64,000 nt of DNA. Source: Gammaproteobacteria bacterium. GTDB taxonomy: Bacteria > Pseudomonadota > Gammaproteobacteria > Eutrophobiales > Eutrophobiaceae. How positions within the stretch are numbered: position 1 is the first letter of the stretch; every line of letters begins with the position of its first letter. Under the pieces are notes generated by a model. It had not been told where the DNA came from, searched no databases, and saw only the letters and a list, made by a program, of their open reading frames with translations. A program made the translations under genes and the position numbers. Below, one piece after another: positions 6,175-56,654 of the stretch. The DNA is taken from NCBI GenBank assembly GCA_965116495.1, contig OZ220696.1:2656001-2720000 (forward strand), read 5' to 3'.

Positions 6175-6237
6175 TTAGCCTGCCCTTAGCGTTATTTTGA
6201 TCCTGGTCTCAGCGGCCTGATATTTTCGTGTATGTAC

Positions 6238-6255
6238 GGGGTCAGGTCGCACATT
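6238..6255. repeat. single arm of the GGGGTCAGGTCGCACA REP-like repeat
   Basis: GGGGTCAGGTCGCACATT shares its first 16 nt with the arm at 7460. Confidence 0.65.
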
Positions 6256-6256
6256 A

Positions 6257-38704: not shown

Positions 38705-38735
38705 TCGAGAGTGCAGGATGAGGAACTGGGGCTAG

Positions 38736-40352
38736 CAGTCTGTCGGACTTGGGCGCTGCGATTATCTTTGCGGACCACTTTTCAGGTCTTTTTGTCGCGG
38801 CAAGGCGCACGTGCATGTTGCCTGAACCTATACATGTACATTATGGGGATGTACAGACCTCACCAGGCGCCTGTCCTGACCGGGTAAACACCCACTGCCC
38901 CCTGCATCAGGCCAGCTGCATGTTATGCAGGCGTTTACAGTTGTAGGCCAGGGCCAGTAACTGCCACTCACCGGTCACCTTCTCATGGCCGCGCAGGAGA
39001 AACTGCCGGAACCCCAGGGCCTGCTTCATGATACCGAACACCGGCTCCACGGTCTGCTGCCGCAACCGGTAGCTGGCCCGGTTGTCCGCCTGTGATAACT
39101 TCTCTTGCATCGCCACCAGCCAGGGCGCTTTCGCCGGCTTGGGCTTGGCCGCCTGCGCCGGGTCCGGCAACGGGCGGAAGTCATGCCGCCGGCGCCGGTC
39201 CTCCGTCCCCACCGCCACCAGCACGTCTATCTCCCGACCGGTCAGCGCAGCCACTTCTGTCTCCGTCGCATAGCCGTTGTCCGCCAACACCTGGGCAGGG
39301 GTCCCCAACGCCGCCGGCACCGAGTCAATGTCAGCGACCAATTCGTTGCGGTCGCTGGCGCATTGGCTGACCCGCGTCCCCAGCACCAACTGGCTGCCGT
39401 CCGCATCCACCACCGCCTGCGCATTGTACGCCTGCCGGTACTCACTGCGTTTGTTCTTGCGCATCAGGGAACTGTCCGCATCCGTCAGGTTCACCTGGGT
39501 GTCCTCCGCCGGGGTGTCTTCCGGCGGCTTGATAGGGTGCCCCTTGGCCCGGCCCCGACGCTTCTCACGCGCCGCCACCTTGCGCTCGTACTCGGCCTGG
39601 TCCGCCTGCGCTTGCGCCTTGGCCTGGCGCTCCAGACGTGCGCAGGCCGCATCCAGTTGCGTCGCCAGCGCCTCCCGCCGCGCCAACGCCTTCGGCAACT
39701 GCTGCGGGTCCGCCGCGTCCTGGCTGTCCGCACGCTCCGCTTCGGCCAGCAAATCCTTGACCTCACCCCGCAACTGCTCGCGTAATTCCACCGCCCGGTC
39801 ATAGCGGATACTGCGCCGCTTGCTCGCAGCCGCCTTCACCTTCGTCCCGTCCACACTCACCCGGCCCACCGTCAACAACTTCAATTCCTTCGCCAGCAAT
39901 AACACCTCCACAAAACCCGCCTGTACCGCCTCAAGGTTCTCCCGCCGGAACTTGCAAATCGTGTCATGGTCCGGGTGCGTGTTCGCCGTCACGTAACGCA
40001 CCCCGATATCCCGGTACGTCGCTCGCTCAATCCGGCGCGAGGAAAAAATACCGTTCGCATAACAATAAATCAGCAACGCCAGCATGATACGCGGGTGATA
40101 CTGTGCCGACCCCGTGCCCCGGGTGTTCACCACAAACTGACTCAAAGGCACCCGTTCCACCGCTGCCACGACAAAATGCGCCAGGTCATCCTCGGGTAGC
40201 CACTCGCGTAAATCCGGTGGTAACAGGTAGGGTTGGTTACGGTCACTTTGCACAAAGTTTTCCATCGAAGCAGCCTCTATCGAACAGCGTGTGGTATCAT
40301 CAAATCGTGTCGTCTATTATACCTCTATCCCAGCCCTAAGTCCGACAGACTG
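38736..40352 (-). mobile_element. IS1182-family insertion sequence
   Basis: Terminal inverted repeats CAGTCTGTCGGACTT / AAGTCCGACAGACTG, flanked by CTAG at 38732-38735 and 40353-40356. Confidence 0.9.
38907..40265 (-). CDS. IS1182-family DDE transposase
   Basis: LLPPDLREWLP, SSRRIERA, PDHDTI, VDGTKV, TDADS, ADNGY, RQQTVEPVFG. Confidence 0.92.
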   Translation of the reverse strand: MENFVQSDRNQPYLLPPDLREWLPEDDLAHFVVAAVERVPLSQFVVNTRGTGSAQYHPRIMLALLIYCYANGIFSSRRIERATYRDIGVRYVTANTHPDHDTICKFRRENLEAVQAGFVEVLLLAKELKLLTVGRVSVDGTKVKAAASKRRSIRYDRAVELREQLRGEVKDLLAEAERADSQDAADPQQLPKALARREALATQLDAACARLERQAKAQAQADQAEYERKVAAREKRRGRAKGHPIKPPEDTPAEDTQVNLTDADSSLMRKNKRSEYRQAYNAQAVVDADGSQLVLGTRVSQCASDRNELVADIDSVPAALGTPAQVLADNGYATETEVAALTGREIDVLVAVGTEDRRRRHDFRPLPDPAQAAKPKPAKAPWLVAMQEKLSQADNRASYRLRQQTVEPVFGIMKQALGFRQFLLRGHEKVTGEWQLLALAYNCKRLHNMQLA

Positions 40353-40356
40353 CTAG

Positions 40357-40812
40357 CCCGCATTTCTCACCAGGTCGCTGTCTGCCACCGGATGTTTGTT
40401 TGCAGTCAATGAGTTACTACGCATTCTTCACTATCTCGCCATTTACAGGCTGCGCTTGATGCGCCCTCGCTTGTCTTTTTCCCGCCAGCGGGCACGTGTT
40501 CATTGCGTCCATCCCTGGACGCAACCCTTCGGGCGGCTATCGCCGTGCAAATCGGCTGTCCTGCCGATTTGTCCCTCAACCAGACAAATCTGCCTGGAGC
40601 AGATTTGGACGCTCGCAGAGCGCCCGCAGGGGGCGCCCCAAGGATGGGGCGCATCAACTACGGCTATGCTTTCGGTCGCAGGCACCCGCTGGCGGGACAA
40701 ATCTGCCAGGAGCAGATTTGGACGTCCGCAGGACGCCCGCAGGGTGTGCGCCACGGAAGGCGCACATCTAAAATCCGGCGCGATCATCGCATCACCTGGT
40801 GAGAAATGCGGG
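40357..40812. mobile_element. MITE (456 bp, non-autonomous)
   Basis: Perfect 19-bp TIRs CCCGCATTTCTCACCAGGT, flanking CTAG on both sides, internal hairpin repeats and no credible ORF. Confidence 0.8.
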
Positions 40813-41829
40813 CTAGAACGACGCAGGCACCGGCGGCAGTTCACCGCTGGCGTAACGTGTCTCCAGTCCCGGTGTCAGGTTCTCCCAGACCAGCAGCATG
40901 GAACGTTTCGGAGAAAAGCCGCGATGGCGTATGTCCGCCGGCATGCAGGACACGTCCCCGGCTTTCATGGTAACCACGCACATCGGGGCAGCTGTATCCT
41001 TGTCAGCTACTTTCCAGGTAATCTCATCGGACATCTGGATAAACCATTCCACCCTGTCGTTGCCGTGGTCCACCGGCAGGATATGTTCTTCCGACGTCGG
41101 GCAGTAAGCGCTGGCTCTCACAATGGAAACGATAGACGGATTCCAGGTAACCGGCGAGCGGGACAGGTATTTGAACAGGTTGAAGGCCGCGAGTTGTCCT
41201 TCGAAACCAGCTTCGGCATGGACTTCCGGCTCGGACTGGTCCACATCAGCGAACTGCCGGTTGACCGGCCGCCCGTTTTCATCGGAACGGACCGGGGTGT
41301 CGCCGGGCAGGCTGACGAAACGGTCCGCCAGTTCCCGCTGAAAATTGACAGCTTCATCGTTGTTGCCGTTTTTAGGCCCGCGCCCGCTGCCGGTTTCAAG
41401 CGGCGCGGCAAAGGGGTTGAAACCGGCATTGGTCCAATCCAGCATCAAGCCTTTAAAACAGGCAAGTAACACGCCCGGTTCAAACCGTTCGGTAAAGTCG
41501 GTGCCGGAATCCTTGTAGGCCTGGTTATAGGCACCCATGAAGACGTCGACGCTGTCGTAGTTATTTACGGTGCCGAACACCTCATCAAAGTTGACCCAAC
41601 CGTAAAAAAATCCCCATGCCACGTCGCGTATCATCGAGCGCATAAAATTCTCCACGTCCATCACGTGGGTCACGGTCGGACACTGGATACGGGCAAAATA
41701 CTCATCCCGTTCAAACTTGAACGAGCCGATTTCAAAGCGCTTGTAGCCGTTGACCGGGTGCGGCGCGCTTTCACGATGCGCTCCGGTAAGAATCGGCAGG
41801 TCGGTAATTTGTTCTGCTATGGCTGCCAT
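40813..41829 (-). CDS. hydroquinone 1,2-dioxygenase large subunit (HqdB/HapD/PnpC2 type, cupin)
   Basis: FERDEYFARI, RDVAWGFFYGWVNFD, CPTSEEHILPVDHGNDRVEWF, MPADIRHRG, MLLVWEN. Confidence 0.88.
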   Translation of the reverse strand: MAAIAEQITDLPILTGAHRESAPHPVNGYKRFEIGSFKFERDEYFARIQCPTVTHVMDVENFMRSMIRDVAWGFFYGWVNFDEVFGTVNNYDSVDVFMGAYNQAYKDSGTDFTERFEPGVLLACFKGLMLDWTNAGFNPFAAPLETGSGRGPKNGNNDEAVNFQRELADRFVSLPGDTPVRSDENGRPVNRQFADVDQSEPEVHAEAGFEGQLAAFNLFKYLSRSPVTWNPSIVSIVRASAYCPTSEEHILPVDHGNDRVEWFIQMSDEITWKVADKDTAAPMCVVTMKAGDVSCMPADIRHRGFSPKRSMLLVWENLTPGLETRYASGELPPVPASF

Positions 41830-41847
41830 AATTATTTCCCCCTCAGA

Positions 41848-42348
41848 TCAGTGCTGGCAGATTTCCGCCCATTTTTCGACGGACTCATCACCCAGTAAGG
41901 TTTGCAGTAAAATCACGCTCAATTCACCGGCGCGAAACCGGTAGGCTGCGCCGGCCGGCAACAGGACCAGGTGGCCCCGCGTCGCCTTGATATGCCCCAT
42001 GACCTGGCCCTCCGGTTGGCCGGCCAGTTTAACGGATCCCTCCTTCTCTTCGGGTGGAACCAGCCCGCCGTCCGCGGGCTTTATAAAACGGGCTTCCATG
42101 CTGCCCTGCATGAGCAACGCGGTCTCATCGTGACTGCAGATATACCAGGGGCTGTCTCCTTCCGCGCGTATCACTTCAACGGTGTTCTCCAGGTTTTTAG
42201 CGATGACAATTCGCTCCCAGGGATCTGCATTGCCGGCCACCTCGAACATATTGGAAAACAGGTAATCCCGCGCATCTTCATTACCGGTAATTTCAACGCC
42301 GCCTTTGCTGTAGCTATCGATGCTTCCGAATACGGTAGTTACGGACAT
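41848..42348 (-). CDS. hydroquinone 1,2-dioxygenase small subunit (HqdA/HapC/PnpC1 type)
   Basis: TVFGSIDSYSKGGVEI, YLFSNMFEVA, HDE, LLPAGAAYRF, SVEKWAEIC. Confidence 0.88.
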   Translation of the reverse strand: MSVTTVFGSIDSYSKGGVEITGNEDARDYLFSNMFEVAGNADPWERIVIAKNLENTVEVIRAEGDSPWYICSHDETALLMQGSMEARFIKPADGGLVPPEEKEGSVKLAGQPEGQVMGHIKATRGHLVLLPAGAAYRFRAGELSVILLQTLLGDESVEKWAEICQH

Positions 42349-42375
42349 GGTCTTTCCCCCGGAGACAGTAGGTTA

Positions 42376-42437
42376 ATAAGGAAATTTGGGACACCCATAC
42401 ATTGCGCGCTATTTATGGGTGTCCCAAATTTCCTTAT
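42376..42437. repeat. perfect 24-bp inverted repeat (REP-like or operator)
   Basis: ATAAGGAAATTTGGGACACCCATA ... TATGGGTGTCCCAAATTTCCTTAT. Confidence 0.8.
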
Positions 42438-42481
42438 CATATCGCATCGTGATAGTTTCTGAAAAGGAGCAAAGCAGAAGT

Positions 42482-42504
42482 GGGACAGAATTGAATTCTG
42501 TCCC
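42482..42504. repeat. REP-like palindrome
   Basis: GGGACAGAATTGAATTCTGTCCC. Confidence 0.75.
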
Positions 42505-42672
42505 CGCTTGACCCTGCCCGACGCAGATAAAGTATCTCAAAGGCGCCACAGTATAGCATCCCGCCGGTTTTATTTTTGTGGAGGGATGTTATATTAGGGA
42601 GAGTTCTGAGGATTTAACCAGAAGTTCCTTGCCACACACGTCCTCAATCTACTGACTACAAGATAGACACAC

Positions 42673-43347
42673 ATGGGCATTAATCCAAAAGTGCGCCAGA
42701 CAGATCAGCAGACATCCCTTCCCGTCGTTAAAAAAATGCGCAAGGACGCCATACTGAAACGCAAGGAACTGATTAAAATCGCCACTGAAATGTTCCTGGA
42801 ATTGGGCTATGAAAAAGCCAGCATGAATAATCTCGTCAAGCGTTCCGGATCATCAAAAAGCACCATATACAAACATTTCCGCAGCAGGCAGGCGCTTTTC
42901 ATTGCCGTGATAGATGAGAAATTACGCGATCATCTGGCCCCCATTGAAAACCTGGATCTTACAACCCTGAGCATTGAAGAAGGCCTGAAACTGATCGGGA
43001 GGACAGGGATAAAGGTAATCACATCGAAAGATCACATAAACCTGTGCCGAATCATATATCCCGAAGCTGAACGGATACCTTATGTAGGCAAGACCTACTA
43101 CGAACATGGGCCAAAACGCGGTATGGAGGGCGTGGTAAAATATCTATCTGCCATGGTGGAAAGTGGCAGGATCAGGTGCGCGGATCCTTCTTCGGCAGCA
43201 GAACACTTCTGGGGTATGATACTGCACAAGCCCATGCTGGAAATGTATTGTGGTATCAGAGGTCCTTTAACGACCCGGGAGCAAAAAAACTATATAGACA
43301 GAGTTGTCGACTCTTTCATCTCTGCTTTCATTGTAGAGATTGAATAA
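42673..43347 (+). CDS. TetR/AcrR-family regulator
   Basis: ATEMFLELGYEKASMNNLVKRSGSSKSTIYKHF HTH; YYEHGP in the C-terminal domain. Confidence 0.9.
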   Translation: MGINPKVRQTDQQTSLPVVKKMRKDAILKRKELIKIATEMFLELGYEKASMNNLVKRSGSSKSTIYKHFRSRQALFIAVIDEKLRDHLAPIENLDLTTLSIEEGLKLIGRTGIKVITSKDHINLCRIIYPEAERIPYVGKTYYEHGPKRGMEGVVKYLSAMVESGRIRCADPSSAAEHFWGMILHKPMLEMYCGIRGPLTTREQKNYIDRVVDSFISAFIVEIE

Positions 43348-43351
43348 CCGG

Positions 43352-43647
43352 CTATTGTGCTTTAAACCAGGTGTCAAGGTAGTCAAAAAACTGTTCCTCC
43401 TCATCGGTATGGCAGCGGAAGCCAATATACCCGTCGGGACGTATCAACAATAACTGGCCGCTATCGATTTTGCCATAGCATTCGGCAAATTCCCCTTTGG
43501 CATCCGTAACCAACCCTCTTTCCGGGTCAATTGTATCCGGTCGTCCACGCCATGCCCATGGGCCATGATGATATCGTGCATGGCATGGGTACCGGCGATC
43601 ACCTGTGCGCCGACGATCAATACAGGTTTATGTTGATCCGGAATCAT
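43352..43647 (-). pseudogene. relic of a PcpB-like FAD-dependent (halo)phenol 4-monooxygenase with two large deletions
   Basis: Three collinear fragments: MIPDQHKPVLIVGA | QVIAGTHAMHDIIMAHGHGVDDRIQLTRKEGW | (frameshift) VTDAKGEFAECYG...LLLIRPDGYIGFR...DYLDTWFKAQ*. Confidence 0.72.
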
Positions 43648-43825
43648 GCTAATCCCTGCGTCATCGATTTGTTCATGTCGATCTCAGAATTAATTCTTGA
43701 ATATTGTAGCTGAAGCCACTAAACTGTACAGGATGGTTCGGTTTAGCATGATGACCACTCGAAGAATTTAGTTTATATTTCATAAGCAATAACATAACAA
43801 ATTTATATCCCGGAGGAAAAAGAAC

Positions 43826-44794
43826 ATGTCCGATAAACTGCCAGGTACAAGCCTGACCGGCCACCATCACATAACGATAGGCGTCGGCAACGCACAGGAA
43901 GACTTCGATTTTCACACCAAGGTACTGGGACTGAAATGCGTCAAGCGCACCTTGTTCTACGACGGGGCAACCCCGGTTTACCACCTGTATTACGGGAATG
44001 ACATCGGTGATGAAAGTACGCTGCTCACCACGTTCCCGGTGGCCCACATAGGGGTAAAGGCAAAGGAAGGCAGCGGTCAGGTCAGTTACGTCAGCTTGTC
44101 CGTGCCTGAAGATTCATTGCCTTACTGGAACAACCGTCTCCGGGAACATGGTTTCGAAGTGACGGAAACCGAACGTTTCGGAGAAAAACACCTCGATTTC
44201 CGTTCCCCGCACAACATCCGCCTGTCCATGGTCGGTGTCGATGACGATACGCGGGCGCCGTATTCCGATGGGCCGGTTCCTGCCGAGAACATGATCCGCG
44301 GCACCCACGCAGCCGGCGTCTCCACCCGCGACATGGAATTCATGGAAGAGTTTCTGCAGGTGGCGTGGGGCTCCCACAAGGAAGCAGACGACAGCAACCT
44401 GGTTCGCTTCACCATGGGCGAGGGCGGCACCGGCACCTATACGGACTTCGAAATCGAACCGGACCGTAAACCGGGGTCCTGGACTGTGGGCGAAGGCGCA
44501 ATCCATCACATGGCCTATAACGTGCCTACCCGGAAAGATCAGGATGCCATCAAGTTTTTCACCGAGGGACTCGGCTATACGGATTTTTCCGACGTGAAGG
44601 ATCGCGGCTATTTTGATTCCATATACATCCGTACCCCCTCCGGCGCCCTGTTTGAAGCCTGTTGTTCACACAAACCTGCTTTCACTTGCGATGAACCGTC
44701 AGAAACACTTGGGACAAAGCTGATGATGTCGCCGCAAATCGAAGCACATAAAGATGAGGTGCTGAAAGTTATCGGTGAAATCAAGGATGATTGA
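43826..44794 (+). CDS. PcpA/LinE-like (halo)hydroquinone 1,2-dioxygenase (VOC family)
   Basis: HHHIT, VKRTLFYDGATPVYHLY, TTFP, GAIHHMAY, KDRGYFDSIYIRTPSGALFE (2-His-1-Glu). Confidence 0.85.
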   Translation: MSDKLPGTSLTGHHHITIGVGNAQEDFDFHTKVLGLKCVKRTLFYDGATPVYHLYYGNDIGDESTLLTTFPVAHIGVKAKEGSGQVSYVSLSVPEDSLPYWNNRLREHGFEVTETERFGEKHLDFRSPHNIRLSMVGVDDDTRAPYSDGPVPAENMIRGTHAAGVSTRDMEFMEEFLQVAWGSHKEADDSNLVRFTMGEGGTGTYTDFEIEPDRKPGSWTVGEGAIHHMAYNVPTRKDQDAIKFFTEGLGYTDFSDVKDRGYFDSIYIRTPSGALFEACCSHKPAFTCDEPSETLGTKLMMSPQIEAHKDEVLKVIGEIKDD

Positions 44795-44888
44795 GATAAA
44801 ATAATCCATACCAGCAAAATCCGCAGTTGAGACGCCAGCCCGGCTGATACCCGTTGCGTTTTGCCGGCAGATCACAGAGACTGTTTCA

Positions 44889-45953
44889 ATGATGAATTTT
44901 CACTATGCAGCGCTTCCCTGGAACATCATATTCGCGGCCGGCGCCCGGAAACGCCTGCCCGGGGAACTGGCGCAACTCGGCTACTCCCGCGCACTGGTGC
45001 TGGCAACACCGAACCAGTCGGATATCGGGCAGGAGATCGTCAAACTGCTGGGCGACAAGGCGGTGGGACTGTTCGACCGGGCCATGATGCACGTGCCAGT
45101 TGAGACACTCGAACAGGCAATGGCGGAGGTAAAACGGCTTGACGCCGACTGCTCCGTTTCCGTGGGCGGCGGCTCAACCACCGGCCTGAGCAAGGCACTG
45201 GCTTTCCACCTCGACCTGCCCAATATCGTGCTGCCCACCAGTTACGCCGGTTCGGAGATGACCAATGTCTGGGCAGTGACACAGGACAACCGCAAGGTTA
45301 CCCGGCGGGATAACGTTGTTGTGCCGACGCTGACTATCTATGATCCGGAGCTGACCCTGACGCTGCCGCCGGCATTCGCGGCCGCCAGCGGCATGAACGC
45401 CATGGCGCAGGCCGTTGCCAATGCAGCTGCGGAAGACGCCAATCCCATAAGTTCGGTTCTTGCCCTGGAGGGAATCCGCACCCTGGCGCGCAGTCTGCCT
45501 GCCATCATTTCCGAACCCGAAAACATGGACGCGCGTACCAAAGCCCTGTACGGCGCCAGCCTGGCTGCCGCCGCGCTGGGAACAGGCACAACAGGCCTGC
45601 ATCATCGTCTGTGCCACACTTTCGGCGGCACGTTTAACACCCCCCATGCCGAGACCCATACAGTCCTGCTGCCGCACAGTGTCGCCTACAACGCCGGCGC
45701 CAGGCCCGACACTACGCGCAGGGTCACCGAAGCCCTGGGAGTCAGTGATGCCGCAACCGGACTGTTTGAACTGGCCGGAAAGCTTGGCGCCCCCACTGCA
45801 CTAAAAGACATCGGGGTAAAGGAGACGGACCTGGATGAAGCCGCCGCAGTAGCCGTGGAAAATCCGATAAAAAATCCCGAGCCGGTTACCAGGGAAAGAA
45901 TTCGCGCCTTGCTTGAAAACGCCTGGCACGGCCATCCCCCCCCGCCTGTGTAA
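44889..45953 (+). CDS. maleylacetate reductase
   Basis: [50 protein letters not shown]. Confidence 0.9.
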
Positions 45954-45958
45954 CCGTT

Positions 45959-47326
45959 ATGAGACCCGTTCCGCAGATCACCGTGCAAGAGGCCGCCGCC
46001 AGGGTCCATTCCGGCGACGTGCTTATCGTGGGCGGCTTCGGTATGACGGGTAACCCGACCAGGGTGATGCACGCCATTGCCGAAACTGACCTGACCGATC
46101 TCACTTATATCGGCAATAACGTCGGAGAACCCGGGCTCGCCGGCGGGCGTTGCCTGCGCAAGGGACAGTTCAAGAAAGTCATAGGCTCGTTCTTTACCAG
46201 CAACCCGGAAGCCGTTGCGGCGGCACAGTCCGGGGAAGTCGAATTCGAACTCTTGCCCCAGGGCACCCTGGCTGAGGCAATCCGCGCCGGCGGGGCCGGT
46301 ATCGGCGGTTTCTTTACACCCACCTCAGCCGGAACGCCGCTGGCGGAAGGGCGCGAGACAAAGCTTATCGACGGAACGGAAATGGTATTTATTCCCGCGC
46401 TGCATGCCGATGTCGCGATCATCAGGGCCTGGCGCGCGGATACGGCCGGCAACCTGCAGTACCGTATGACCGAAAACAATTTTAACCAGGCGGCAGCTAC
46501 TGCCGCCGACCTGGTCATTGCAGAGGTGGAGGAAATCGTATCGGCCGGCGCGCTCGATCCTGATTTCATCCATACCCCGGGCTGTTTTGTCGATTACCTG
46601 GTCCAGGCCGCGCTTGACCCGGAGCACCTGGGTACCTCGGCATCCGTGGCGGCGAGCCTGAAAAAGGTGGATGATACCCGCATGATGATGGCCGGGATAG
46701 CACTGGCGGAATTGAAGCGGGGCGATATCGTCAACCTGGGGGTCGGCATACCCACCCTGGTAGCGGACCTGATCAAGCCGGAAGACGGCATCATCCTGCA
46801 CTCTGAAAACGGGATGTTGGGCGTGGGCCCCGAACCGGAATCCGGCGGCGCCATGGAGTACCCGGTCAATGCCGGCAAAGTACCGGTCACCGCGCTGTCG
46901 GGCGCCAGCTATTTCGACAGCGCCACCTCTTTCGCCATGATCCGGGGAGGCCACGTGGACGTGGCCATCATGGGCGGACTACAGGTGGACGAGCAGGGCA
47001 GCCTGGCCAACTGGGCGGTACCGGGCAAACCCCTGCTCGGCGTCGGCGGCGCCATGGACCTGGCGTCCGGCGCCAGGAAGCTGATCGTCACGATGACCCA
47101 CTGCGACAGGAACGGCAACTCCAAGGTGGTTCCCCGTTGCAACCTGCCCCTGACCGCGCGCAAGGCCGTCGATTTACTGATCACGGACCTGGCGGTATTT
47201 GACTTCGACGCATCGGGCATGCGCCTGGTGCGGCTGCTGCCGGGTATTACTGAAGATGAAGTAAGGGCCGGGACGGCGGCGGATTATACGGTGGCCCTGG
47301 CCGGCCGGGGTAACGGAGGATCATGA
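45959..47326 (+). CDS. 3-oxoacid (probably 3-oxoadipate) CoA-transferase, fused A+B subunits
   Basis: GGFG and [15 protein letters not shown] (A) followed by [14 protein letters not shown] (catalytic Glu) and GVGGAMDL (B) in one ORF. Confidence 0.88.
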
Positions 47327-47874
47327 TCTTCGACCCTGCCGTCAATGTCATCGCCGCGCTGATACTCAGCTACGTGTTCGTCCTGGCGGGACTGCACAAA
47401 TGCACGGCGCCGGCGGAGTTTGCAGCCACCCTGGCGAATTACAAAATTCTCCCGGAAAACCTGACCCGCCAGGGCATCTACCTGATCCCCGTTGCGGAAA
47501 TCATGACCGGGGTCGCTCTGCTGATTCCGGCCACGGCACAGCTCGCGGCATTGTCGGCAGGTGCGTTACTGTGCATCTACATTGCCGCCATCGGTATCAA
47601 CCTGCTGCGCGGCCGGCGCAATATCGACTGTGGTTGTGGCGGGCCGGCCCAGAAACAAAGCATCAGCGAATGGATGATCGTGCGCAACGCCCTGCTGGTG
47701 CTGCTGGCCTGTATAGCCGGCAGCCAGGCCGAGCCGCGCACACTGCTCTGGTTCGATTGGTTGATAATCATCCTGGCGGCCGTCATGGGTTGCCTGTTCT
47801 ACAATATCATTAACCAGTTACTGGTAAATAAAGACCTGCTGAAATCGCTGGCCCATGAGGAATACCATGCTTGA
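47323..47874 (+). CDS. mauE: amine dehydrogenase maturation membrane protein MauE
   Basis: TM helices, [26 protein letters not shown]. Confidence 0.9.
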
Positions 47875-48478
47875 AGCCTTAATTGTTTCCAACCTGCTGC
47901 TCTGGATCATCGTGGTGATACTGGGGGTGATGGTGTTTGCCCTGGTCAGGCAGATAGGCGTACTCTATGAACGGGTGGCGCCGGCAGGCGCCCTGATGGT
48001 GAATCAAACCCTGCGTCCCGGTGACGCGGCCCCCGAGATGGATTTGCTCACCATCGAAGATAAAAAAATCCGTATAGGCGGTGTCCGGGAACCCGCGCGC
48101 AGCCTGCTGCTGTTTTTTCTCGCTCCCGATTGTCCGGTATGCAAGACCCTGCTGCCGGTGCTGTTTTCGGCACGGAAAGAAGAAAGCGGATGGCTGGACA
48201 TCGTGCTGGCCAGCGACGGTCCTGCCGGAGAACACAGGAAGTTCATCGAGCAGCAGAAACTGTCACCCTTTGATTACGTGCTGTCGGAAATACTCGGCCG
48301 CAGTTACGGGGTAGGTAAACTGCCGTACTCGGTCCTGATCGATGAGCAGGGCAAAGTCGTTACCATGGGCATCATCAATTCCAGGGAACACCTGGAGAGC
48401 CTGTTCGAAGCCAAGGAGCGGGGCGTTGCCTCCATCCAGGAATACGTGAAAAAGTATCACTCCGCAGAACCCGGCTAG
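47867..48478 (+). CDS. mauD: amine dehydrogenase accessory thioredoxin-like protein MauD
   Basis: ALVRQIGVLYERVAPAGAL, CPVC, SREHLESLFEAKERGVASIQ. Confidence 0.92.
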   Translation: MLEALIVSNLLLWIIVVILGVMVFALVRQIGVLYERVAPAGALMVNQTLRPGDAAPEMDLLTIEDKKIRIGGVREPARSLLLFFLAPDCPVCKTLLPVLFSARKEESGWLDIVLASDGPAGEHRKFIEQQKLSPFDYVLSEILGRSYGVGKLPYSVLIDEQGKVVTMGIINSREHLESLFEAKERGVASIQEYVKKYHSAEPG

Positions 48479-49651: not shown

Positions 49652-50623
49652 GTGTCATTTGTTCAACGTTTCATAGAAAGAACACGGGCAGTCTCTGCAC
49701 GACTTGTGTTACCCGAGGGAGACAATGTCCGGATGCTCGCGGCTGCAAGTAGAATCGCGATTGAAGGAATGGGGGAGGTATTCCTTATCGGTAAGCCTGA
49801 GAGTATCGAGGTGTTGGCAGCAGACAATAATATATCGCTGGAAGCCTGCACAATCGTCGATCCGCGCACAAGTGGCCGTAGGCAATACTATGCTGAATTG
49901 TATACCAGTCAGCGTGGTAAAGTGAATTCCGGGATGGCGCTCCGGGCCATGCACAAGCCGCTTTACTTCGGAGCGATGATGGTAAAGGCAGGCGACGCCG
50001 ATGTGCTGCTTGCGGGTATCGACAACCCGACGCGGAGGGTTATCGAAGCTACGCAATTGTGCATTGGTCTCGCTGATGGTATTCAGACACCATCTAGTTT
50101 TTTTATCATGCTCCCGAAGGACAGCAAACCGCTCGTTTTTGCGGACTGTGCCGTCAATGCTGATCCCACGGCAGAAGAACTCGCTGATATTGCCATCACG
50201 TCGGCCAGAAATGCGGAGCGACTACTTGATGATGAACCTCGCGTAGCGCTGCTTTCGTTTTCGACAAAGGGCAGCGCCAGTCATTCGCACGTCGATAAGG
50301 TCGTGCGTGCAGTATCGCTTGTTCGGGAGCGGGCGCCTGGACTCGCGGTCGATGGAGAACTACAGGCGGATAGCGCGCTCATTCCTGCGATCGCGGAAAT
50401 CAAGTCGGTCTCGTCGGGTGCTGTAGCCGGCCATGCTAATGTGTTGATATTCCCGGACCTGGATGCCGGTAACATCGCCTACAAGCTTGTCCAGCACCTG
50501 GGTCATGCCGATGCCATCGGACCTGTACTGCAGGGGTTTGCCAAACCTGTAGCTGACTTGTCCCGGGGAGCAAGTGTAGAGGATGTAGTTGCCACCGCGG
50601 CAATCATGGTTTCGATAACATAG
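49652..50623 (+). CDS. pta: phosphate acetyltransferase
   Basis: [46 protein letters not shown]. Confidence 0.9.
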
Positions 50624-50689
50624 CCCGGTTATCCCCCCGGGAAGCTTGTTACTGCGAGGTTTCCATTATTGCAGACACGGGCGGCCAGC

Positions 50690-51715
50690 CTATTTCCCTG
50701 CAACATATTTTTCCAGCTTTTCCAGGTAATGTGCCTTGGCATGTTCAGAAATCCAGGCGGAATTAAACGCGTTACGTGTCAACCGGACAATTTCATCCTT
50801 TGTATAGCTGCCATGTTTGTGCATTTCTATAAAAATATTATTCAGGTAGCGGCTTGCAAATTCCGCCGGGTCATCCGTGTTGATGGAAACGAGCAGTCCC
50901 AGTTCGAGCATTTCGCGGATACTCTCCAACCGCCGGGGAGCAGGATCTGAAGGCCGCCAGGTAGGGCACATCGTGAGGGGGATCTGCAACTCTCGAACCA
51001 TTGCAGTTAATTCCGGGCTGTCGATAACATGCAGGCCATGATCGATACGTTCTACCTGCAATAGTTCCAGGCATTGGCGGATATGTTCGATGGAATTCGG
51101 CTGGTTGCAATCACAATGTGAGGTCAGACGATAGCCTTCTTCCCGTGCTCGCCTGAATACCTCCACGAACTTCAAAGCGAAATTATTCACTTCATAATTA
51201 TCCAGCCCCACCCCGATGATCTCATCTTTAAAAGGTTTAGCCATATCGAGTATTTCCATGGAGGATTCGGCACTATGATCCCTCTGGAAACTCATTATCC
51301 AGTTTGATTCGATCCCAAAATCACGTCTTCCGTCCCTCCTTGCCTGATTAAGTGCGTTGAAGTATTCGGAAAATACAAGTCCCCGACTGATATGTACCTG
51401 TGTTTCGAACATGATTTCCAGATAGACGATGTTCTCTTCAGCAGATTTCTTAAAAAATGCGTAAGCGAGTTCATAGAAATCCTGCCCTGTTTGTAATACA
51501 CGGAGACAGTTCTCATGGTATTTCAAAAAATTATCCAGCGCCGGTTCGCCATAATCCTGTGCCGCCCACACTTCATCTTCATCCCGGTAGGGGATATCCA
51601 CACCGTTGCGTTCTGCGAAGCGCAATAACATCAGTGGTTCTACACATCCCTCAATGTGGACGTGCAGTTCCGCCTTGGGCATTCCGGTAATGAAGTCTTT
51701 TAAACCGTATGACAT
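50690..51715 (-). CDS. adenosine/adenine deaminase-family amidohydrolase, atypical active site
   Basis: PKAELHVHIEG, ERIDHG, NTDDP. The HAGE motif is replaced by HCDCNQ. Confidence 0.82.
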   Translation of the reverse strand: MSYGLKDFITGMPKAELHVHIEGCVEPLMLLRFAERNGVDIPYRDEDEVWAAQDYGEPALDNFLKYHENCLRVLQTGQDFYELAYAFFKKSAEENIVYLEIMFETQVHISRGLVFSEYFNALNQARRDGRRDFGIESNWIMSFQRDHSAESSMEILDMAKPFKDEIIGVGLDNYEVNNFALKFVEVFRRAREEGYRLTSHCDCNQPNSIEHIRQCLELLQVERIDHGLHVIDSPELTAMVRELQIPLTMCPTWRPSDPAPRRLESIREMLELGLLVSINTDDPAEFASRYLNNIFIEMHKHGSYTKDEIVRLTRNAFNSAWISEHAKAHYLEKLEKYVAGK

Positions 51716-51798
51716 TATTCACTTATGGGTTAACACGGCCAGCCCTGTGGCCGCAGGCAACAATTTGCTGTTGTATTGGACACTGAGTCCTGAGCCGC

Positions 51799-53142
51799 TC
51801 AAGTATAACTATCAAGCACCTCGCGGATGATTCCGCACATATCGCCTATTTCCGATTTTTCGATAATGAAAGGTGGCGCAATCAACGCCGCATCTCCCGT
51901 GGTCTTGACATGTACGCCGGCATCAAACAGGCGCTTCTGGAAGTCGTGGCCTCGCATGCCCGGTCTCTCTTCAACCAACAGCTCAATAGCAGCCAGCATC
52001 CCGTAACCGCGGATATCCGTGATCAGCGGATGCTCCTGCAGGGCAAAAACTGAATCAAGAAAGTAACCGGAGAGGTCTTTGGCCCGCTGAAACAAGTTTT
52101 CCTTCTCGTAAATATCCAGTGTTGCCAGGCTTGCAGCGCAGGCGGCAGGATGACCTGAATAGGTGTATCCATGGAAGAATTCAATCATGTCTTCTTCGGC
52201 GGCGCCTACGACGGTATCATATATCCGGTCGTGGACGGCAACGCCCGACATGGGCTGGGCAGCATTCGTCATGGCTTTGGCCATCGTTATGATGTCGGGC
52301 GTCACGCCGAATTCCTGCGCAGCAAATGCCGAACCGGTGCGTCCGAACCCGGTGATCACCTCATCAAAAACCAGCACTATGTCATATTGATCGCAAATTT
52401 CACGCAGCCGCTCCAGGTAACCTTCGGGAGGCACCAGCACACCCGTGGAACCGGCGATTGGCTCGATGAAACAGGCGGCTATCCGACTCTCGCCATACGT
52501 CTTAATAATCCGTAACAGATCGTCGGCAAGGTCTTCACCGCCGTCACCGGGTTGACCTTTAATAAATTTCTGGTCGGCTGTTGCCGTACTGCGCATATAG
52601 GCCACACCCGGCAGGACACTGGTGAAAGCCTCCCTGTTTTTGACGATACCGGCGAGTGACGTACCCCCGATATTCACTCCGTGATAAGCCCGTTCACGGG
52701 AAACAAATATGTTCTTTTGCGATTGCCGTCTCGCAAAGTTATAAGCCATGACAATTTTCATGGCCGTATCAACGGCCTCCGAGCCCGAATTTCCATAGAA
52801 GATGTGATTCAACGGTTCCGGCGTTATAGCCGCTAAACGCCTCGCGAGTTCGAACGATTTGGGGTGTCCGCGCAAAAAGGGTGAAGTATAATCAAGTTCC
52901 TGAAGCTGCTCATGCACCGCAGTGGCGATCTCGTGACGGCAATGACCACAGGGAACGGAAAACAGGCCGGATGAACCGTCAATAAGGCGTTCACCCCGGT
53001 TATTCCATACATGGATCCCTTTCCCTCTTACGATCAGCCGGGGCTCCCGCTTGAAAGATTTATTGTCGGTAAACGGCATCCAGTGGTTTTCCAGGTCAGC
53101 ACGGGAACAGTGCCGGTTGGTGATTTCACTTTTATCTGTCAT
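51799..53142 (-). CDS. class III omega-amino acid:pyruvate aminotransferase (candidate taurine transaminase)
   Basis: HWMPFT, NSGSEAVDTA, YHG, FDEVITGFGR, MAK, HGYTYSGHP. Confidence 0.85.
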   Translation of the reverse strand: MTDKSEITNRHCSRADLENHWMPFTDNKSFKREPRLIVRGKGIHVWNNRGERLIDGSSGLFSVPCGHCRHEIATAVHEQLQELDYTSPFLRGHPKSFELARRLAAITPEPLNHIFYGNSGSEAVDTAMKIVMAYNFARRQSQKNIFVSRERAYHGVNIGGTSLAGIVKNREAFTSVLPGVAYMRSTATADQKFIKGQPGDGGEDLADDLLRIIKTYGESRIAACFIEPIAGSTGVLVPPEGYLERLREICDQYDIVLVFDEVITGFGRTGSAFAAQEFGVTPDIITMAKAMTNAAQPMSGVAVHDRIYDTVVGAAEEDMIEFFHGYTYSGHPAACAASLATLDIYEKENLFQRAKDLSGYFLDSVFALQEHPLITDIRGYGMLAAIELLVEERPGMRGHDFQKRLFDAGVHVKTTGDAALIAPPFIIEKSEIGDMCGIIREVLDSYT

Positions 53143-53267
53143 GACATCAACCACTTCTGCTAATCTAATGGTCATTCTGTTCACCTGTATAATGTGATTA
53201 TGCCAACTTTATCTTGCCGGTCATCGGAGATATTACGGGGCGGCCCTGTCCTCAGGTAGTGCCAGAA

Positions 53268-54755
53268 ATGAGTAAGCGATCACACCAGCTAATGTGGACA
53301 CAACTGATACAACTGGAAGGGTCTGCCCAGGAAAGTTTGCAGATGCAAGTGAGAAAAGGGCTTACCAGGGCAATCCTTGAAGGCAGGATAAGCATGGATT
53401 TGCCGCTCCCTTCAGGTCGTGAACTGGCACAGCAACTGAAAGTCTCCCGCAATACGATCGTGCTGGCCTATCAACGCCTTGTAGATGAAGGCTACCTTAT
53501 CAGCCGGGAGAGACAAGGCTATTTTGTCAATCCGGCGATACTCAGGTCCGCACCACTGTTTCAAGATGAGCAGGATATAACTGATACAGCCACACCGAAT
53601 TGGCAGACCCGGCTTAATATCGACCTCTCTGTACAACGTAACATTCAAAAACCGGTTGATTGGCAAAAATATAAATATCCTTTTATCTACGGTCAGTCAG
53701 ACCCTGCCTTATTTCCCATAGCAGATTGGCGGGAATGTGTACGCCAGTCGCAGAGTGTGGCCCTGATTGCAGCAGGGAGTCTGGACTATATTGACCAGGA
53801 TGATGAAGTGCTGGTAGAGGAGTTGTGTATCCGGGTTTTACCCAGGCGGGGCATATGGATCAAATCGGAAAACCTGTTAGTCACGATCGGCGCCCAGAAC
53901 GCCTTGTCAGTCATCTCTCAATTGCTTTTCAACAAAGATACCGTGATAGGTATTGAAAATCCCGGCTACCCCGATGCCCGGAATTTATTTTTATTACGCA
54001 CCGAACAACTGGTGTTACTCGATGTTGACGAAAACGGTCTGGTCATCAATGACAAAATCGACAGGTGCGATTATGTCTATGTGACCCCCAGCCACCAATC
54101 ACCTACAACCGCCACCATGCCTTTAAACAGGCGCAAAGCTTTACTGGAAAAAGCGAATACGCACGACCTGATAATAATAGAAGATGATTATGAATCGGAG
54201 GCAAATTATATCCACCAGGCAAATCCGGCTTTAAAAAGCCTTGATAAGGACAACCGGGTCATCTATTGCGGCAGTTTGTCGAAATCGCTGGCGCCGGGTC
54301 TGCGCCTCGGGTTTCTTGTCGCAGACCCTGAGTTGATACAACAAGCACGTATGCTGCGGCGGCTTTTGTTACGTCATCCCCCTGCGCTGGTACAACGTAC
54401 AGTTGCCTTGTTTCTACAGCTTGGACATTATGACTCCCATGTCAGTCGTATTAACCAGGTGTTAAAGAGACGTTGGGAACACATGTGCGCGGCGTTGGAA
54501 CAATACCTGCCTGATGCAACGGACATTCCAGAATTCGGCGGTACGGCATTCTGGGTAAGGGGCCCCGCTGCATGTGACGCTCGTCTGCTCGCGCAGTCAT
54601 GTGCCGTACAAAGCATCTTGATTGAACCGGGAGATGTTCATTTCGGCCAGGACCACCCCCCGATGAATTATTTTCGTCTCGGTTTCTCTTCAATAACAGA
54701 GGGCAGGATAAATGACGGTATCTCCCTGATCAGTAAGAAAATAGACCGTATGTGA
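53268..54755 (+). CDS. tauR: MocR/GabR-family regulator, TauR-like
   Basis: GntR wHTH (LPSGRELA..VSRNT) plus aminotransferase-like domain (TPSHQSPT, EDDY, SKSLAPGLRLG), directly upstream of xsc. Confidence 0.82.
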   Translation: MSKRSHQLMWTQLIQLEGSAQESLQMQVRKGLTRAILEGRISMDLPLPSGRELAQQLKVSRNTIVLAYQRLVDEGYLISRERQGYFVNPAILRSAPLFQDEQDITDTATPNWQTRLNIDLSVQRNIQKPVDWQKYKYPFIYGQSDPALFPIADWRECVRQSQSVALIAAGSLDYIDQDDEVLVEELCIRVLPRRGIWIKSENLLVTIGAQNALSVISQLLFNKDTVIGIENPGYPDARNLFLLRTEQLVLLDVDENGLVINDKIDRCDYVYVTPSHQSPTTATMPLNRRKALLEKANTHDLIIIEDDYESEANYIHQANPALKSLDKDNRVIYCGSLSKSLAPGLRLGFLVADPELIQQARMLRRLLLRHPPALVQRTVALFLQLGHYDSHVSRINQVLKRRWEHMCAALEQYLPDATDIPEFGGTAFWVRGPAACDARLLAQSCAVQSILIEPGDVHFGQDHPPMNYFRLGFSSITEGRINDGISLISKKIDRM

Positions 54756-54782
54756 CAGACAGGATACTGATAATTTCGTCTT

Positions 54783-54815
54783 CTGGAACTTGGGATACAA
54801 CATAACTGGCTCTAT
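54783..54815 (+). promoter_or_regulatory. candidate TauR direct-repeat site upstream of xsc
   Basis: CTGGAACTTG and CTGGCTCTAT with a 23-bp period, resembling the CTGGACYTAA direct repeats reported for TauR. The match is degenerate. Confidence 0.4.
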
Positions 54816-54899
54816 TTTCCGCATGCTTACATATGTACAGTGAGCCTTTCTGCAATGAGCGTCCACGCCACAAACCATGATTACAGGTAAAATCAGACA

Positions 54900-56654
54900 A
54901 TGACACGAATGAGCCCAAGCGAAGCCCTTGTGGAAACAATGGTCGCCAACGGTGTAACCAGGATCTTCGGCATTATGGGTTCCGCTTTTATGGATGCCAT
55001 GGATATCTTCGAGCCTGCCGGGATATACATGGTGTCGGTGGTACATGAACAGGGGGCGGCACACATGGCGGATGGATATTCGCGGGTGAGCGGCCGCCAT
55101 GGCGTGTGTATCGGCCAGAACGGACCGGGAATCAGCAATTGTGTTACGGCCATCGCTGCCGCGTATTGGGCTCACTCTCCGGTGGTCATCATCACGCCGG
55201 AAGCAGGCACCATGGGCACGGGACTCGGCGGGTTCCAGGAAGCCAACCAGTTGCCCATGTTCCAGGAGTTCACGAAATACCAGGGGCACGTCAATAACCC
55301 GAAACGCATGGCTGAAATCGCGGGTCGCTGCTTCGAGCGGGCTCTCTCGGAAATGGGCCCCGCCCAGTTAAATATTCCACGGGATCATTTCTATGGTGAA
55401 CTAGACGTGGAAATCCCGCAGCCGCGCGCCCTGGACAGGGGACCCGGTGGCGCTACGAGTTTGAATGAAGCGGCAGAGCTTTTAGTCAACGCGACATTCC
55501 CCGTCATAATCTCCGGCGGTGGTGTCGTGATGGGTGATGGTGTGGATGAATGTAAAGCGCTGGCCGAACGTCTCGGCGCCCCGGTAGTCAACAGTTATCT
55601 GCACAACGATTCCTTCCCTGCAAGCCACCCGCTCTGGTGCGGACCCTTAGGATACCAGGGGTCCAAAGCCGGTATGAAACTCATCAGTAAGGCTGACGTC
55701 GTATTAGCGCTTGGCACCCGGCTGGGACCCTTTGGGACATTGCCCCAGTACGGAATGGAATACTGGCCGGAGGACGCGCAAATCATCCAGGTGGATGCGG
55801 ATCACAAAATGCTGGGGCTGGTAAAGAAGATTTCTGTCGGTATCTGTGGCGATGCCAAAGCCGCCGCCGCCGCATTACTGTCCCGCATTGACGATAAATC
55901 CCTGGCTTGTGACGCCAGTAAGGCGCAGCGCGCAAAAGTTATCGAGCAGGAAAAAGAAACCTGGGAAAAAGAACTGGATGAATGGCGCCATGAGAAAGAC
56001 GATTTCAGCCTGAAAGTGATAGCAGAGGCAGAGGACAAATTGCTGTCCCCGCGCCAGGTCCTGCGGGAACTGGAAAAGGCCATGCCGGCCGATGTCATGG
56101 TATCCACCGACATCGGCAATATCTGTTCGGTGTCGAACAGCTATCTGCGCTTTGAACGACCGCGCAGCATGTTTGCCGCCATGAGTTTCGGCAACTGCGG
56201 TTACGCCTTCCCTACCATCATCGGCGCCAAACTGGCCGCCATGGACCGTCCGGCGGTCTCCTATGTAGGTGACGGCGCCTGGGGCATGAGCATGGGTGAG
56301 ACCATGACCTGTGTGCGCGAGGGCATCCCGGTCACTTCGGTGGTGTTCAACAATATGCAATGGGGCGCGGAGAAGAAGAATCAGGTGGATTTCTACGGGC
56401 GCCGTTTTGTTGCCGGCGACCTGAAGAACCAGAGCTTTGCCGGTATTGCGCGGGCCATGGGCGCTGAAGGTATTGTCGTTGATAAACTCGAAGACGTCGG
56501 CCCTGCCCTCACCAGGGCCATAGATGCCCAGATGAATGACGGCAGGACGACGATACTCGAGATTATGTGTACCCGGGAGTTAGGTGATCCGTTCCGTCGG
56601 GACGCCTTATCCAAACCGGTGCGCCATCTGGATAAGTATCAAAACTACACCTGA
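54900..56654 (+). CDS. xsc: sulfoacetaldehyde acetyltransferase
   Basis: FGIMGSAFMD, HEQGA, QNGPG, LGYQGSKA, GDGAWGMS, WGAEKKNQVDFY, LGDPFRRDAL. Confidence 0.95.
   Translation: MTRMSPSEALVETMVANGVTRIFGIMGSAFMDAMDIFEPAGIYMVSVVHEQGAAHMADGYSRVSGRHGVCIGQNGPGISNCVTAIAAAYWAHSPVVIITPEAGTMGTGLGGFQEANQLPMFQEFTKYQGHVNNPKRMAEIAGRCFERALSEMGPAQLNIPRDHFYGELDVEIPQPRALDRGPGGATSLNEAAELLVNATFPVIISGGGVVMGDGVDECKALAERLGAPVVNSYLHNDSFPASHPLWCGPLGYQGSKAGMKLISKADVVLALGTRLGPFGTLPQYGMEYWPEDAQIIQVDADHKMLGLVKKISVGICGDAKAAAAALLSRIDDKSLACDASKAQRAKVIEQEKETWEKELDEWRHEKDDFSLKVIAEAEDKLLSPRQVLRELEKAMPADVMVSTDIGNICSVSNSYLRFERPRSMFAAMSFGNCGYAFPTIIGAKLAAMDRPAVSYVGDGAWGMSMGETMTCVREGIPVTSVVFNNMQWGAEKKNQVDFYGRRFVAGDLKNQSFAGIARAMGAEGIVVDKLEDVGPALTRAIDAQMNDGRTTILEIMCTRELGDPFRRDALSKPVRHLDKYQNYT

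What the first reader, a model, noticed from the sequence alone, without database searches (positions are those of the whole stretch)
40813..47326. Two unrelated hydroquinone dioxygenases plus maleylacetate reductase: a likely halohydroquinone pathway
Seen: a two-subunit cupin HqdAB/HapCD-type enzyme and a VOC PcpA/LinE-type enzyme flank a TetR gene, followed by maleylacetate reductase and a CoA-transferase. No 4-hydroxymuconic semialdehyde dehydrogenase is in the window. Knowledge: PcpA/LinE cleavage of 2-halo- or 2,6-dihalohydroquinone gives an acyl halide that hydrolyses directly to (halo)maleylacetate, so no aldehyde dehydrogenase is needed, and maleylacetate reductase removes the remaining halide. 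Inference: the natural substrates are halogenated, e.g. marine bromophenol-derived, hydroquinones.
Basis: partly seen in the sequence, partly recalled or inferred. Interest (0 to 1): 0.75.

Follow-up and report, generated by a model that had tools for sequence, protein, structure and literature searches.

The report
Two-route hydroquinone cluster, likely bromophenol-fed
An uncultured bacterium keeps two unrelated hydroquinone ring-opening enzymes beside a shared downstream pair; one likely opens brominated rings directly and the other likely opens halogen-free hydroquinone with a partner gene found elsewhere in the genome, which would make this a natural counterpart of the pentachlorophenol-pesticide pathway.

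Summary
All genes are present at the stated coordinates, intact and under purifying selection. The argument from a missing dehydrogenase fails: a full HapE/PnpE orthologue (65-67% identical) lies 340 kb away. It is found in the same 20 of 23 genus genomes as hqdB and abuts hqdB in one congener and in metagenome clusters. Four congeners carry an intact pentachlorophenol-hydroxylase (PcpB)-like gene (48%) beside pcpA, reduced here to a 300-bp pseudogene. Ten carry a PcpF-like gene. One places the arm directly after an NpRdhA-type debrominase. Outside the genus, 10 of 22 close-clade loci have a dehalogenation-type neighbour, against 0 of 22 distant ones. Against: no substrate was tested; MnpC-type relatives cleave aminohydroquinone; 15 of 19 pcpA genomes lack pcpB; and the reductase has Gln/Arg at two residues essential in PcpE. 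Best reading: two routes converging on maleylacetate, the PcpA route likely for bromohydroquinones. The scan had no look-alike note on other DNA; one note covers a dehalogenase cassette in this genome.

The parts
38907..40265 (-). IS1182-family transposase, lineage-specific insertion downstream of hqdB (six identical copies in the genome); not part of the pathway
   Evidence: NF033551 over cut-off; six 100% hits; inverted arms 38719-38753 / 40335-40369; not seen at this site in the 17 congeners fetched
40353..40816 (.). Non-coding repeat element with 23-nt perfect inverted ends, multi-copy in the genome
   Evidence: I3, D1; many genome hits; raised depth
40813..41829 (-). HqdB/PnpD/HapD-type large subunit of the two-subunit (cupin) hydroquinone 1,2-dioxygenase; H255, E261, H302 align to PnpD H256, E262, H303
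   Evidence: (59% to both references); role of these residues as Fe ligands is recalled
41848..42348 (-). HqdA/PnpC/HapC-type small subunit
   Evidence: 47-50%
42673..43347 (+). TetR-family regulator, divergent from hqdA; likely controls the cluster (inferred)
   Evidence: PF00440 + PF14246; kept at this site in 12 congeners, median dN/dS 0.15
43344..43647 (-). Pseudogene remnant of a PcpB-like FAD phenol monooxygenase: three pieces (about aa 1-17, 341-376, 481-532), two internal deletions of about 980 and 315 bp, stop after 67 codons
   Evidence: intact orthologue in G001, G006, G015, G019, 48% to S. chlorophenolicum PcpB; a contig spanning 42819-45092 matches with 0 differences (may be the source sample)
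43826..44794 (+). PcpA/LinE-type single-chain VOC hydroquinone 1,2-dioxygenase; H15, H228, E277, Y267 (PcpA H11, H227, E276, Y266) plus H161 and R260 kept
   Evidence: residues H11/H227/E276/Y266 from PMC3204407; H159/R259 roles recalled
44889..45953 (+). Maleylacetate reductase of a Gln174/Arg240 variant subfamily (PcpE His172/Lys238); only copy in the genome
45959..47326 (+). Fused PcaIJ-type 3-oxoacid CoA-transferase, likely activating 3-oxoadipate
   Evidence: follows the reductase in congeners and in 13 of 35 close-clade loci
47323..48478 (+). mauE and mauD, overlapping the CoA-transferase stop; likely co-transcribed, link to the pathway unexplained

Best explanation
The cluster holds two unrelated hydroquinone dioxygenases and one shared reductase/CoA-transferase pair, and likely works as two routes to maleylacetate: the PcpA-type enzyme would open ortho-brominated hydroquinones to an acyl bromide that hydrolyses to (bromo)maleylacetate, while HqdAB would open halogen-free hydroquinone to 4-hydroxymuconic semialdehyde, which the HapE encoded 340 kb away would oxidise. 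The single Gln/Arg-type reductase, the fused CoA-transferase and a distant 3-oxoadipyl-CoA thiolase would then finish the path to succinyl-CoA and acetyl-CoA. The PcpA arm descends from a pcpB-pcpA-reductase-pcpF-like halophenol unit whose pcpB is a pseudogene here, so in this genome the brominated hydroquinone must come from another enzyme or from outside. NpRdhA-type debrominases elsewhere in the genome could move substrate from the first route to the second. Shown: gene identities, intact frames, active-site residues, distant hapE and pcaF, gene neighbourhoods, the pseudogene. Inferred: every substrate, the division of labour, bromine rather than chlorine, regulation by TetR.
For: hapE orthologue 67%/65% to PnpE/HqdC against 45% for the next aldehyde dehydrogenase. 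hqdB and hapE each in 20 of 23 genus genomes, missing from the same three. Natural splits: G013 has hqdA-hqdB-hapE contiguous plus reductase and CoA-transferase but no pcpA; G006 has tetR-pcpB-pcpA-reductase but no hqdB or hapE. Intact PcpB-like gene beside pcpA in 4 of 23, 48% to PcpB, above the roughly 35% that PMC3318906 calls uninformative. PcpF-like GST upstream of hqdA in 10 of 17 congeners fetched. In G006 an NpRdhA-type gene ends 65 bp before tetR. Three full NpRdhA-type genes in G000; the first is over the TIGR02486 cut-off and keeps S422, Y426, K488, R552. Outside the genus, among loci of 6 kb or more, 10 of 22 with a relative at 68% identity or above have rdhA (3), pcpB-like (4) or linD-like (3) nearby, against 0 of 22 below 68%. 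An esterase, which ester products would need, was hit in 1 of 35 close loci against 8 of 58 distant ones. The tree places the clade as sister to LinE, a LinEb-like protein and the enzyme of a 2,6-dichlorophenol-enriched Cupriavidus. Median dN/dS 0.05-0.15.
Against: No enzyme of this clade has been assayed, and identity to PcpA and LinE is only 42-44%. MnpC, 39% identical, is assigned to aminohydroquinone and also cleaves plain hydroquinone (PMC5604080). The sister grouping has 94/93 support, below the starred level, with a long-branch warning; diagnostic columns split 9 to 7 between the halo and non-halo groups. 15 of 19 pcpA genomes have no intact pcpB, and G004, G009 and G010 also lack the other candidate monooxygenase. 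NpRdhA-type genes occur in 18 of 60 family genomes sampled, while a full-length pcpA was found in only 1 of 14 non-genus family genomes searched, so their mere presence is weak evidence. The 10/22 versus 0/22 contrast uses queries from this genus, non-independent loci and a 68% cut chosen after seeing the table. The reductase lacks His172 and Lys238, whose alanine mutants are dead in PcpE. No cobN was found for cobalamin supply.
Confidence: 0.55

Rival explanations
1. The PcpA-type enzyme serves non-halogen ortho-substituted hydroquinones (methyl, methoxy, amino, hydroxy) from lignin-like or host phenolics; the cluster is a broad hydroquinone funnel and halogen links are incidental.
For: [quoted passage not shown]
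Against: No esterase or amidase was recognised in the cluster of G000 or the congeners fetched; three different kinds of dehalogenation gene recur beside this clade; the neighbour monooxygenase is 48% identical to PcpB.
Confidence: 0.25
2. The genes mainly detoxify quinones and hydroquinones met in the habitat (with PcpF-like and other glutathione enzymes); the two dioxygenases overlap in substrate and carbon use is secondary.
For: PcpF-like GST beside hqdA in 10 congeners; HqdAB from Sphingomonas is inactivated by its substrate, so a second enzyme could be a backup; upstream monooxygenase lost repeatedly (remnants in G000 and G022).
Against: The full route to central metabolism is kept: reductase, CoA-transferase and a 3-oxoadipyl-CoA thiolase over the NF006001 cut-off; each arm is lost separately in different genomes.
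Confidence: 0.12
3. One reading: both dioxygenases act on halohydroquinones in one self-contained, dehydrogenase-free pathway.
For: No hapE in the window; one paper states that the P. fluorescens two-subunit enzyme cleaves 2-fluorohydroquinone next to the halogen (PMC3222310 passage), though another states C1-C6 cleavage of chlorohydroquinone for this class (PMC5604080 passage).
Against: hapE is in the genome, tracks hqdB across the genus and abuts it in G013, L128, L143 and L159.
Confidence: 0.05

Closest known systems
Pentachlorophenol pathway of Sphingobium chlorophenolicum (PcpB, PcpA, PcpE, PcpF; PMC3318906 passages, PDB 4huz)
   Same: PcpA fold and active-site residues; reductase downstream; PcpB-like (48%) and PcpF-like genes in the same cluster in congeners.
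   Different: Only 42% identity to PcpA; TetR rather than LysR; no PcpD or PcpC orthologue in the cluster; pcpB is a pseudogene here; joined to hqdAB; reductase has Gln/Arg for His172/Lys238.
LinE/LinD/LinR of Sphingobium indicum UT26 (lindane lower pathway)
   Same: 44% identical dioxygenase; linD-like and linR-like genes sit beside close relatives outside the genus (L084, L115, L156).
   Different: No linD, esterase or LysR in this cluster.
HapCDEF / PnpCDEF / HqdABCD hydroquinone pathway (PDB 5m21, 4zxa; plasmid clusters)
   Same: 59% and 47-50% identical subunits; hapE orthologue, reductase, CoA-transferase, thiolase and hydroxyquinol dioxygenase all in the genome.
   Different: hapE, pcaF and the hydroxyquinol dioxygenase are dispersed; no nitrophenol or acetophenone monooxygenase was identified; a second, unrelated dioxygenase is attached.
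OdcABC of Pigmentiphaga sp. H8 (3,5-dibromo-4-hydroxybenzoate to 2,6-dibromohydroquinone to 2-bromomaleylacetate; recalled, only the title seen in reference lists)
   Same: As recalled: a dioxygenase plus maleylacetate reductase acting on 2,6-dibromohydroquinone without an aldehyde dehydrogenase.
MnpC cluster of Cupriavidus (aminohydroquinone; PMC5604080 passages)
   Same: Same dioxygenase family (39%) with a reductase.
   Different: That cluster has a nitroreductase and an amidase; neither is here.

Membership tests
PcpA/LinE type I hydroquinone 1,2-dioxygenase | Single-chain VOC fold matching PcpA | tested here: met
   4huz top hit by sequence and fold, TM 0.89, rmsd 1.9
PcpA/LinE type I hydroquinone 1,2-dioxygenase | His11, His227, Glu276, Tyr266 (plus His159, Arg259, recalled) | tested here: met
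   H15, H228, E277, Y267, H161, R260; PMC3204407 passage
PcpA/LinE type I hydroquinone 1,2-dioxygenase | One clade with the halohydroquinone enzymes rather than MnpC-type | tested here: inconclusive
   Sister to LinE/LinEb-like/RK1 at 94/93 with long-branch warning; PcpA itself was not in the tree, a broken LinEb-like gene stood in; columns 9 vs 7
PcpA/LinE type I hydroquinone 1,2-dioxygenase | Preference for halohydroquinones with halide release | not testable with these tools
   needs enzyme assay
HapCD/PnpCD/HqdAB type II hydroquinone dioxygenase | Adjacent small and large subunit genes with His-Glu-His site | tested here: met
HapCD/PnpCD/HqdAB type II hydroquinone dioxygenase | Partner 4-hydroxymuconic semialdehyde dehydrogenase available | tested here: met
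   C1:2355876-2357336, 65-67%; matching distribution
Maleylacetate reductase (PcpE/LinF type) | Best solved relatives are maleylacetate reductases; His236, His237, His241, His251 kept | tested here: met
Maleylacetate reductase (PcpE/LinF type) | His172 and Lys238 (LHHKLCHTLGG motif), essential in PcpE | tested here: not met
   Gln174 and Arg240; Gln in 120 of 120 and Arg in 119 of 120 top homologues; filed as a variant subfamily
Complete pcp-type halophenol pathway | Intact PcpB-type para-hydroxylase | tested here: not met
   pseudogene in G000; intact in 4 of 23 genus genomes
Complete pcp-type halophenol pathway | Self-contained, no semialdehyde dehydrogenase in the genome | tested here: not met
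OdcABC pathway | OdcA-type decarboxylating monooxygenase and OdcB orthology | not tested
   no Odc sequence or paper text was available

The most novel reading that the evidence does not exclude
A mostly marine clade of PcpA-type dioxygenases, travelling with PcpB-like, PcpF-like, LinD-like and B12-debrominase genes and a Gln/Arg-type maleylacetate reductase, is a long-standing natural pathway for brominated phenols and hydroquinones, the kind of pathway from which the pentachlorophenol and lindane enzymes were recruited. In this genus it is joined to the cupin hydroquinone route so that brominated and debrominated rings are sorted to different enzymes.
Probability: 0.4. Interest if true: 0.7.

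Novelty: new variant of a known kind. Interest (0 to 1): 0.45.

Why it matters
PMC3318906 states that the original substrate of PcpB is hard to discern and that pcpA and pcpE likely came from a pathway for naturally occurring compounds. These genomes give a concrete, testable candidate, with a cultured carrier (Pseudohaliea rubra DSM 19751: linD-like, lysR, pcpA-like, reductase, CoA-transferase, pcaF). If true, it adds an aerobic sink for natural organobromine in uncultured marine Gammaproteobacteria, and a reductase subfamily that works without two residues reported essential. If false, it is an ordinary hydroquinone funnel with two known enzyme types.

Tried and rejected
Rejected: absence of hapE as evidence. 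Rejected: the IS1182 as the cause of hapE loss, since 14 congeners with both dioxygenases linked lack hapE at this site without that IS. Pfam PF13486 found no reductive dehalogenase in the genome, with no positive control; this was a false negative, as ORF reading and searches found three. Search for the enzyme that feeds the cluster: no TcpA/HadA orthologue (the two PF03241 genes are closest to 4oo2/HpaB or distant from all); the flavin monooxygenase beside pcaF had ancestral FMOs as best solved hits, and no HapA assignment could be made; a RebC-like FAD monooxygenase divergent from hapE in 12 of the 19 hapE loci viewed is a candidate only (its plasmid relatives sit with maleylacetate reductase and an intradiol dioxygenase). 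No full-length tryptophan-halogenase-family gene (only short N-terminal hits). No RNA holder listed. Promoter/terminator scan uninformative. Diagnostic-column comparison inconclusive. Paper searches for a description of this cluster or of such a pathway in sponge symbionts found none (library limited to open papers). Not held: Chen 2018, Chen 2022, Hayes 2013, Moonen 2008, Miyauchi 1999, Payne 2015 and one further AEM paper. Earlier-finding look-ups by sequence and words returned nothing. One search added nothing.
Full report
Observation. All six genes are at the stated coordinates. HqdB and HqdA match the solved two-subunit hydroquinone dioxygenases 5m21 and 4zxa and are 59% and 47-50% identical to annotated plasmid copies. 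The VOC protein has PcpA (4huz) as its best hit by sequence and by predicted fold (pLDDT 83, TM 0.89). It keeps the four residues that PMC3204407 names as iron-site residues (passages; mapped). The reductase and the fused CoA-transferase are as described. The dioxygenases are unrelated. Pairwise dN/dS against 12-17 congeners has medians of 0.05-0.15.

The missing dehydrogenase is not missing. tblastn of two annotated HapE-type proteins against the complete genome gives a full-length hit at C1:2355876-2357336, 67% and 65% identical; the next aldehyde dehydrogenase is at 45%. A 3-oxoadipyl-CoA thiolase lies at C1:2386304-2387509 (over the NF006001 cut-off, under TIGR02430). In the genus, hqdB is in 20 of 23 genomes and hapE in 20 of 23, both missing from G006, G011 and G017. 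G011 and G017 lack most of these genes, so G006 is the informative case. pcpA is in 19 of 23. In 14 of the 17 congeners whose loci I fetched, both dioxygenases are linked as here. G013 has hqdA-hqdB-hapE contiguous, with reductase and CoA-transferase and no pcpA; G006 has the pcpA arm and no hqdB or hapE. In G010, hapE sits beside the dat-dacC-rlpA genes that flank this cluster, which suggests this was its earlier home. Metagenome loci L128 (duplicate L129), L143 and L159 carry hqdA-hqdB-hapE, a reductase and a pcpA relative together. So the two-dioxygenase layout recurs, and HapE is the partner of HqdAB.

What supports halogens, for the PcpA arm. Between tetR and pcpA the window holds a 300-bp remnant of an FAD monooxygenase with two deletions and an early stop. 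The gene is intact at this position in G001, G006, G015 and G019 and is 48% identical to S. chlorophenolicum PcpB; G022 has a second remnant. A GST with a CPWA motif (assignment to the PcpF class recalled) precedes hqdA in 10 of 17 congeners, with remnants in two more; here it is gone, with a 51% paralogue elsewhere. The genome has three full NpRdhA-type reductive dehalogenase genes. The first keeps S422, Y426, K488 and R552 (PMC7565698 passages) and sits beside an HpaB/SgcC-type monooxygenase and a hydroxyquinol dioxygenase; that monooxygenase has the same 20-of-23 pattern as hqdB. In G006 the tetR-pcpB-pcpA-reductase arm follows this rdhA directly. Outside the genus I scored 13 genome loci and 78 of 80 metagenome loci (L104 and L105 left out as same-genus by identity, L108 and L129 then dropped as duplicates). 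Among loci of 6 kb or more, 10 of 22 with a relative at 68% or above have rdhA, pcpB-like or linD-like neighbours, against 0 of 22 below. The loci are not independent, the queries came from this genus, and the cut was chosen. A Roseobacter enzyme converts 2,6-dibromophenol to 2-bromophenol (PMC13101508 abstract and passages), so marine debrominases of aerobic bacteria are known. Named close relatives include Halioglobus, Woeseia and Pseudohaliea rubra. From recall, some isolate labels among the 89-94% records belong to sponge-microbiome sets; this was not checked.

What counts against. Nothing here shows a substrate. The clade is 42-44% identical to PcpA and LinE and 39% to an MnpC-type protein; MnpC is assigned to aminohydroquinone and cleaves plain hydroquinone (PMC5604080 passages). 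The tree join to the LinE group is 94/93 with a long-branch warning. The Sphingomonas HqdAB runs chlorohydroquinone at 29% and methylhydroquinone at 139% of hydroquinone (PMC3222310 passages). pcpA persists in 15 genomes without pcpB, and three of them also lack the RebC-like monooxygenase that is divergent from hapE in G000, so no single supplier is identified. RdhA genes are in 18 of 60 family genomes. No cobN was found.

The reductase is a variant. PcpE His172 and Lys238 are essential by alanine mutation and described as strictly conserved (PMC5741723 abstract and passages). Here they are Gln174 and Arg240, as in 16 and 17 of 17 congeners (G013, which lacks pcpA, keeps His), 5 of 7 outside loci, and 120 and 119 of the top 120 homologues. 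It is the only copy in each of the 20 of 23 genomes where it was found, and the genome has three likely maleylacetate-forming routes, so it probably does the job (inference). Its dehalogenating activity is untested.

Mechanism. Inferred: bromohydroquinones go through the PcpA-type enzyme to an acyl bromide, which hydrolyses to (bromo)maleylacetate (acyl-halide chemistry recalled; PcpA product 2-chloromaleylacetate). Hydroquinone goes through HqdAB and HapE. Both meet the reductase, CoA-transferase and thiolase. RdhA could shift substrate from the first route to the second. Confidence 0.55.

Comparison and verdict. Each enzyme belongs to a known family, and a dibromohydroquinone route is recalled from Pigmentiphaga (title only seen). 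I found no paper describing this joined cluster or the Gln/Arg reductase (open library only; no supplements read). Other papers: PMC3318906 and PMC3727088 passages; PMC12016517 passages and PMC11144243 one reference line. Verdict: new variant of a known kind, interest 0.45.

Noticed in passing
window 47323-48478; window about 5635-7285; G000:C1:840952-842498 and 4129211-4130681: mauE-mauD overlap the CoA-transferase stop and follow it in most congeners; they are single-copy, while three TTQ amine-dehydrogenase mauA/mauB pairs lie elsewhere. A link through aromatic amines such as bromotyramine is a guess.
   Followed up: partly
G000:C1:1462059-1475479 (L057): Cluster of hydroxyquinol 1,2-dioxygenase, two DUF1329-like proteins (label recalled), HpaB/SgcC-type monooxygenase, NpRdhA-type dehalogenase and a DsbA/kappa-GST-like protein; rdhA and the monooxygenase are adjacent in most congeners.
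   Followed up: partly
   Followed up: partly
G000:C1:2351541-2360441 (L055): hapE sits among a two-subunit Rieske oxygenase, a TonB receptor, a CarAa-like carbazole dioxygenase homologue (E 1e-144) and a RebC-like FAD monooxygenase; only the last is a steady neighbour in congeners.
   Followed up: partly
window 49652-56654: Phosphate acetyltransferase, adenosine deaminase, omega-aminotransferase, MocR-type regulator and sulfoacetaldehyde acetyltransferase xsc: likely taurine catabolism.
   Followed up: partly
genus loci L035-L053: The cluster is eroding piecemeal: pcpB remnants in G000 and G022, pcpF-like remnants in G008 and G016, a shortened reductase in G018, a split first rdhA in G003, and single internal stops in the HpaB-type gene of G008, G010 and G013.
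   Followed up: partly
window 42376-42437: Near-perfect 62-nt palindrome just upstream of hqdA; part of it has several genome hits, so more likely a repeat than a TetR operator.
   Followed up: no
whole genome G000: 28 Rieske ring-hydroxylating alpha-subunit hits and a selenocysteine tRNA.
   Followed up: no
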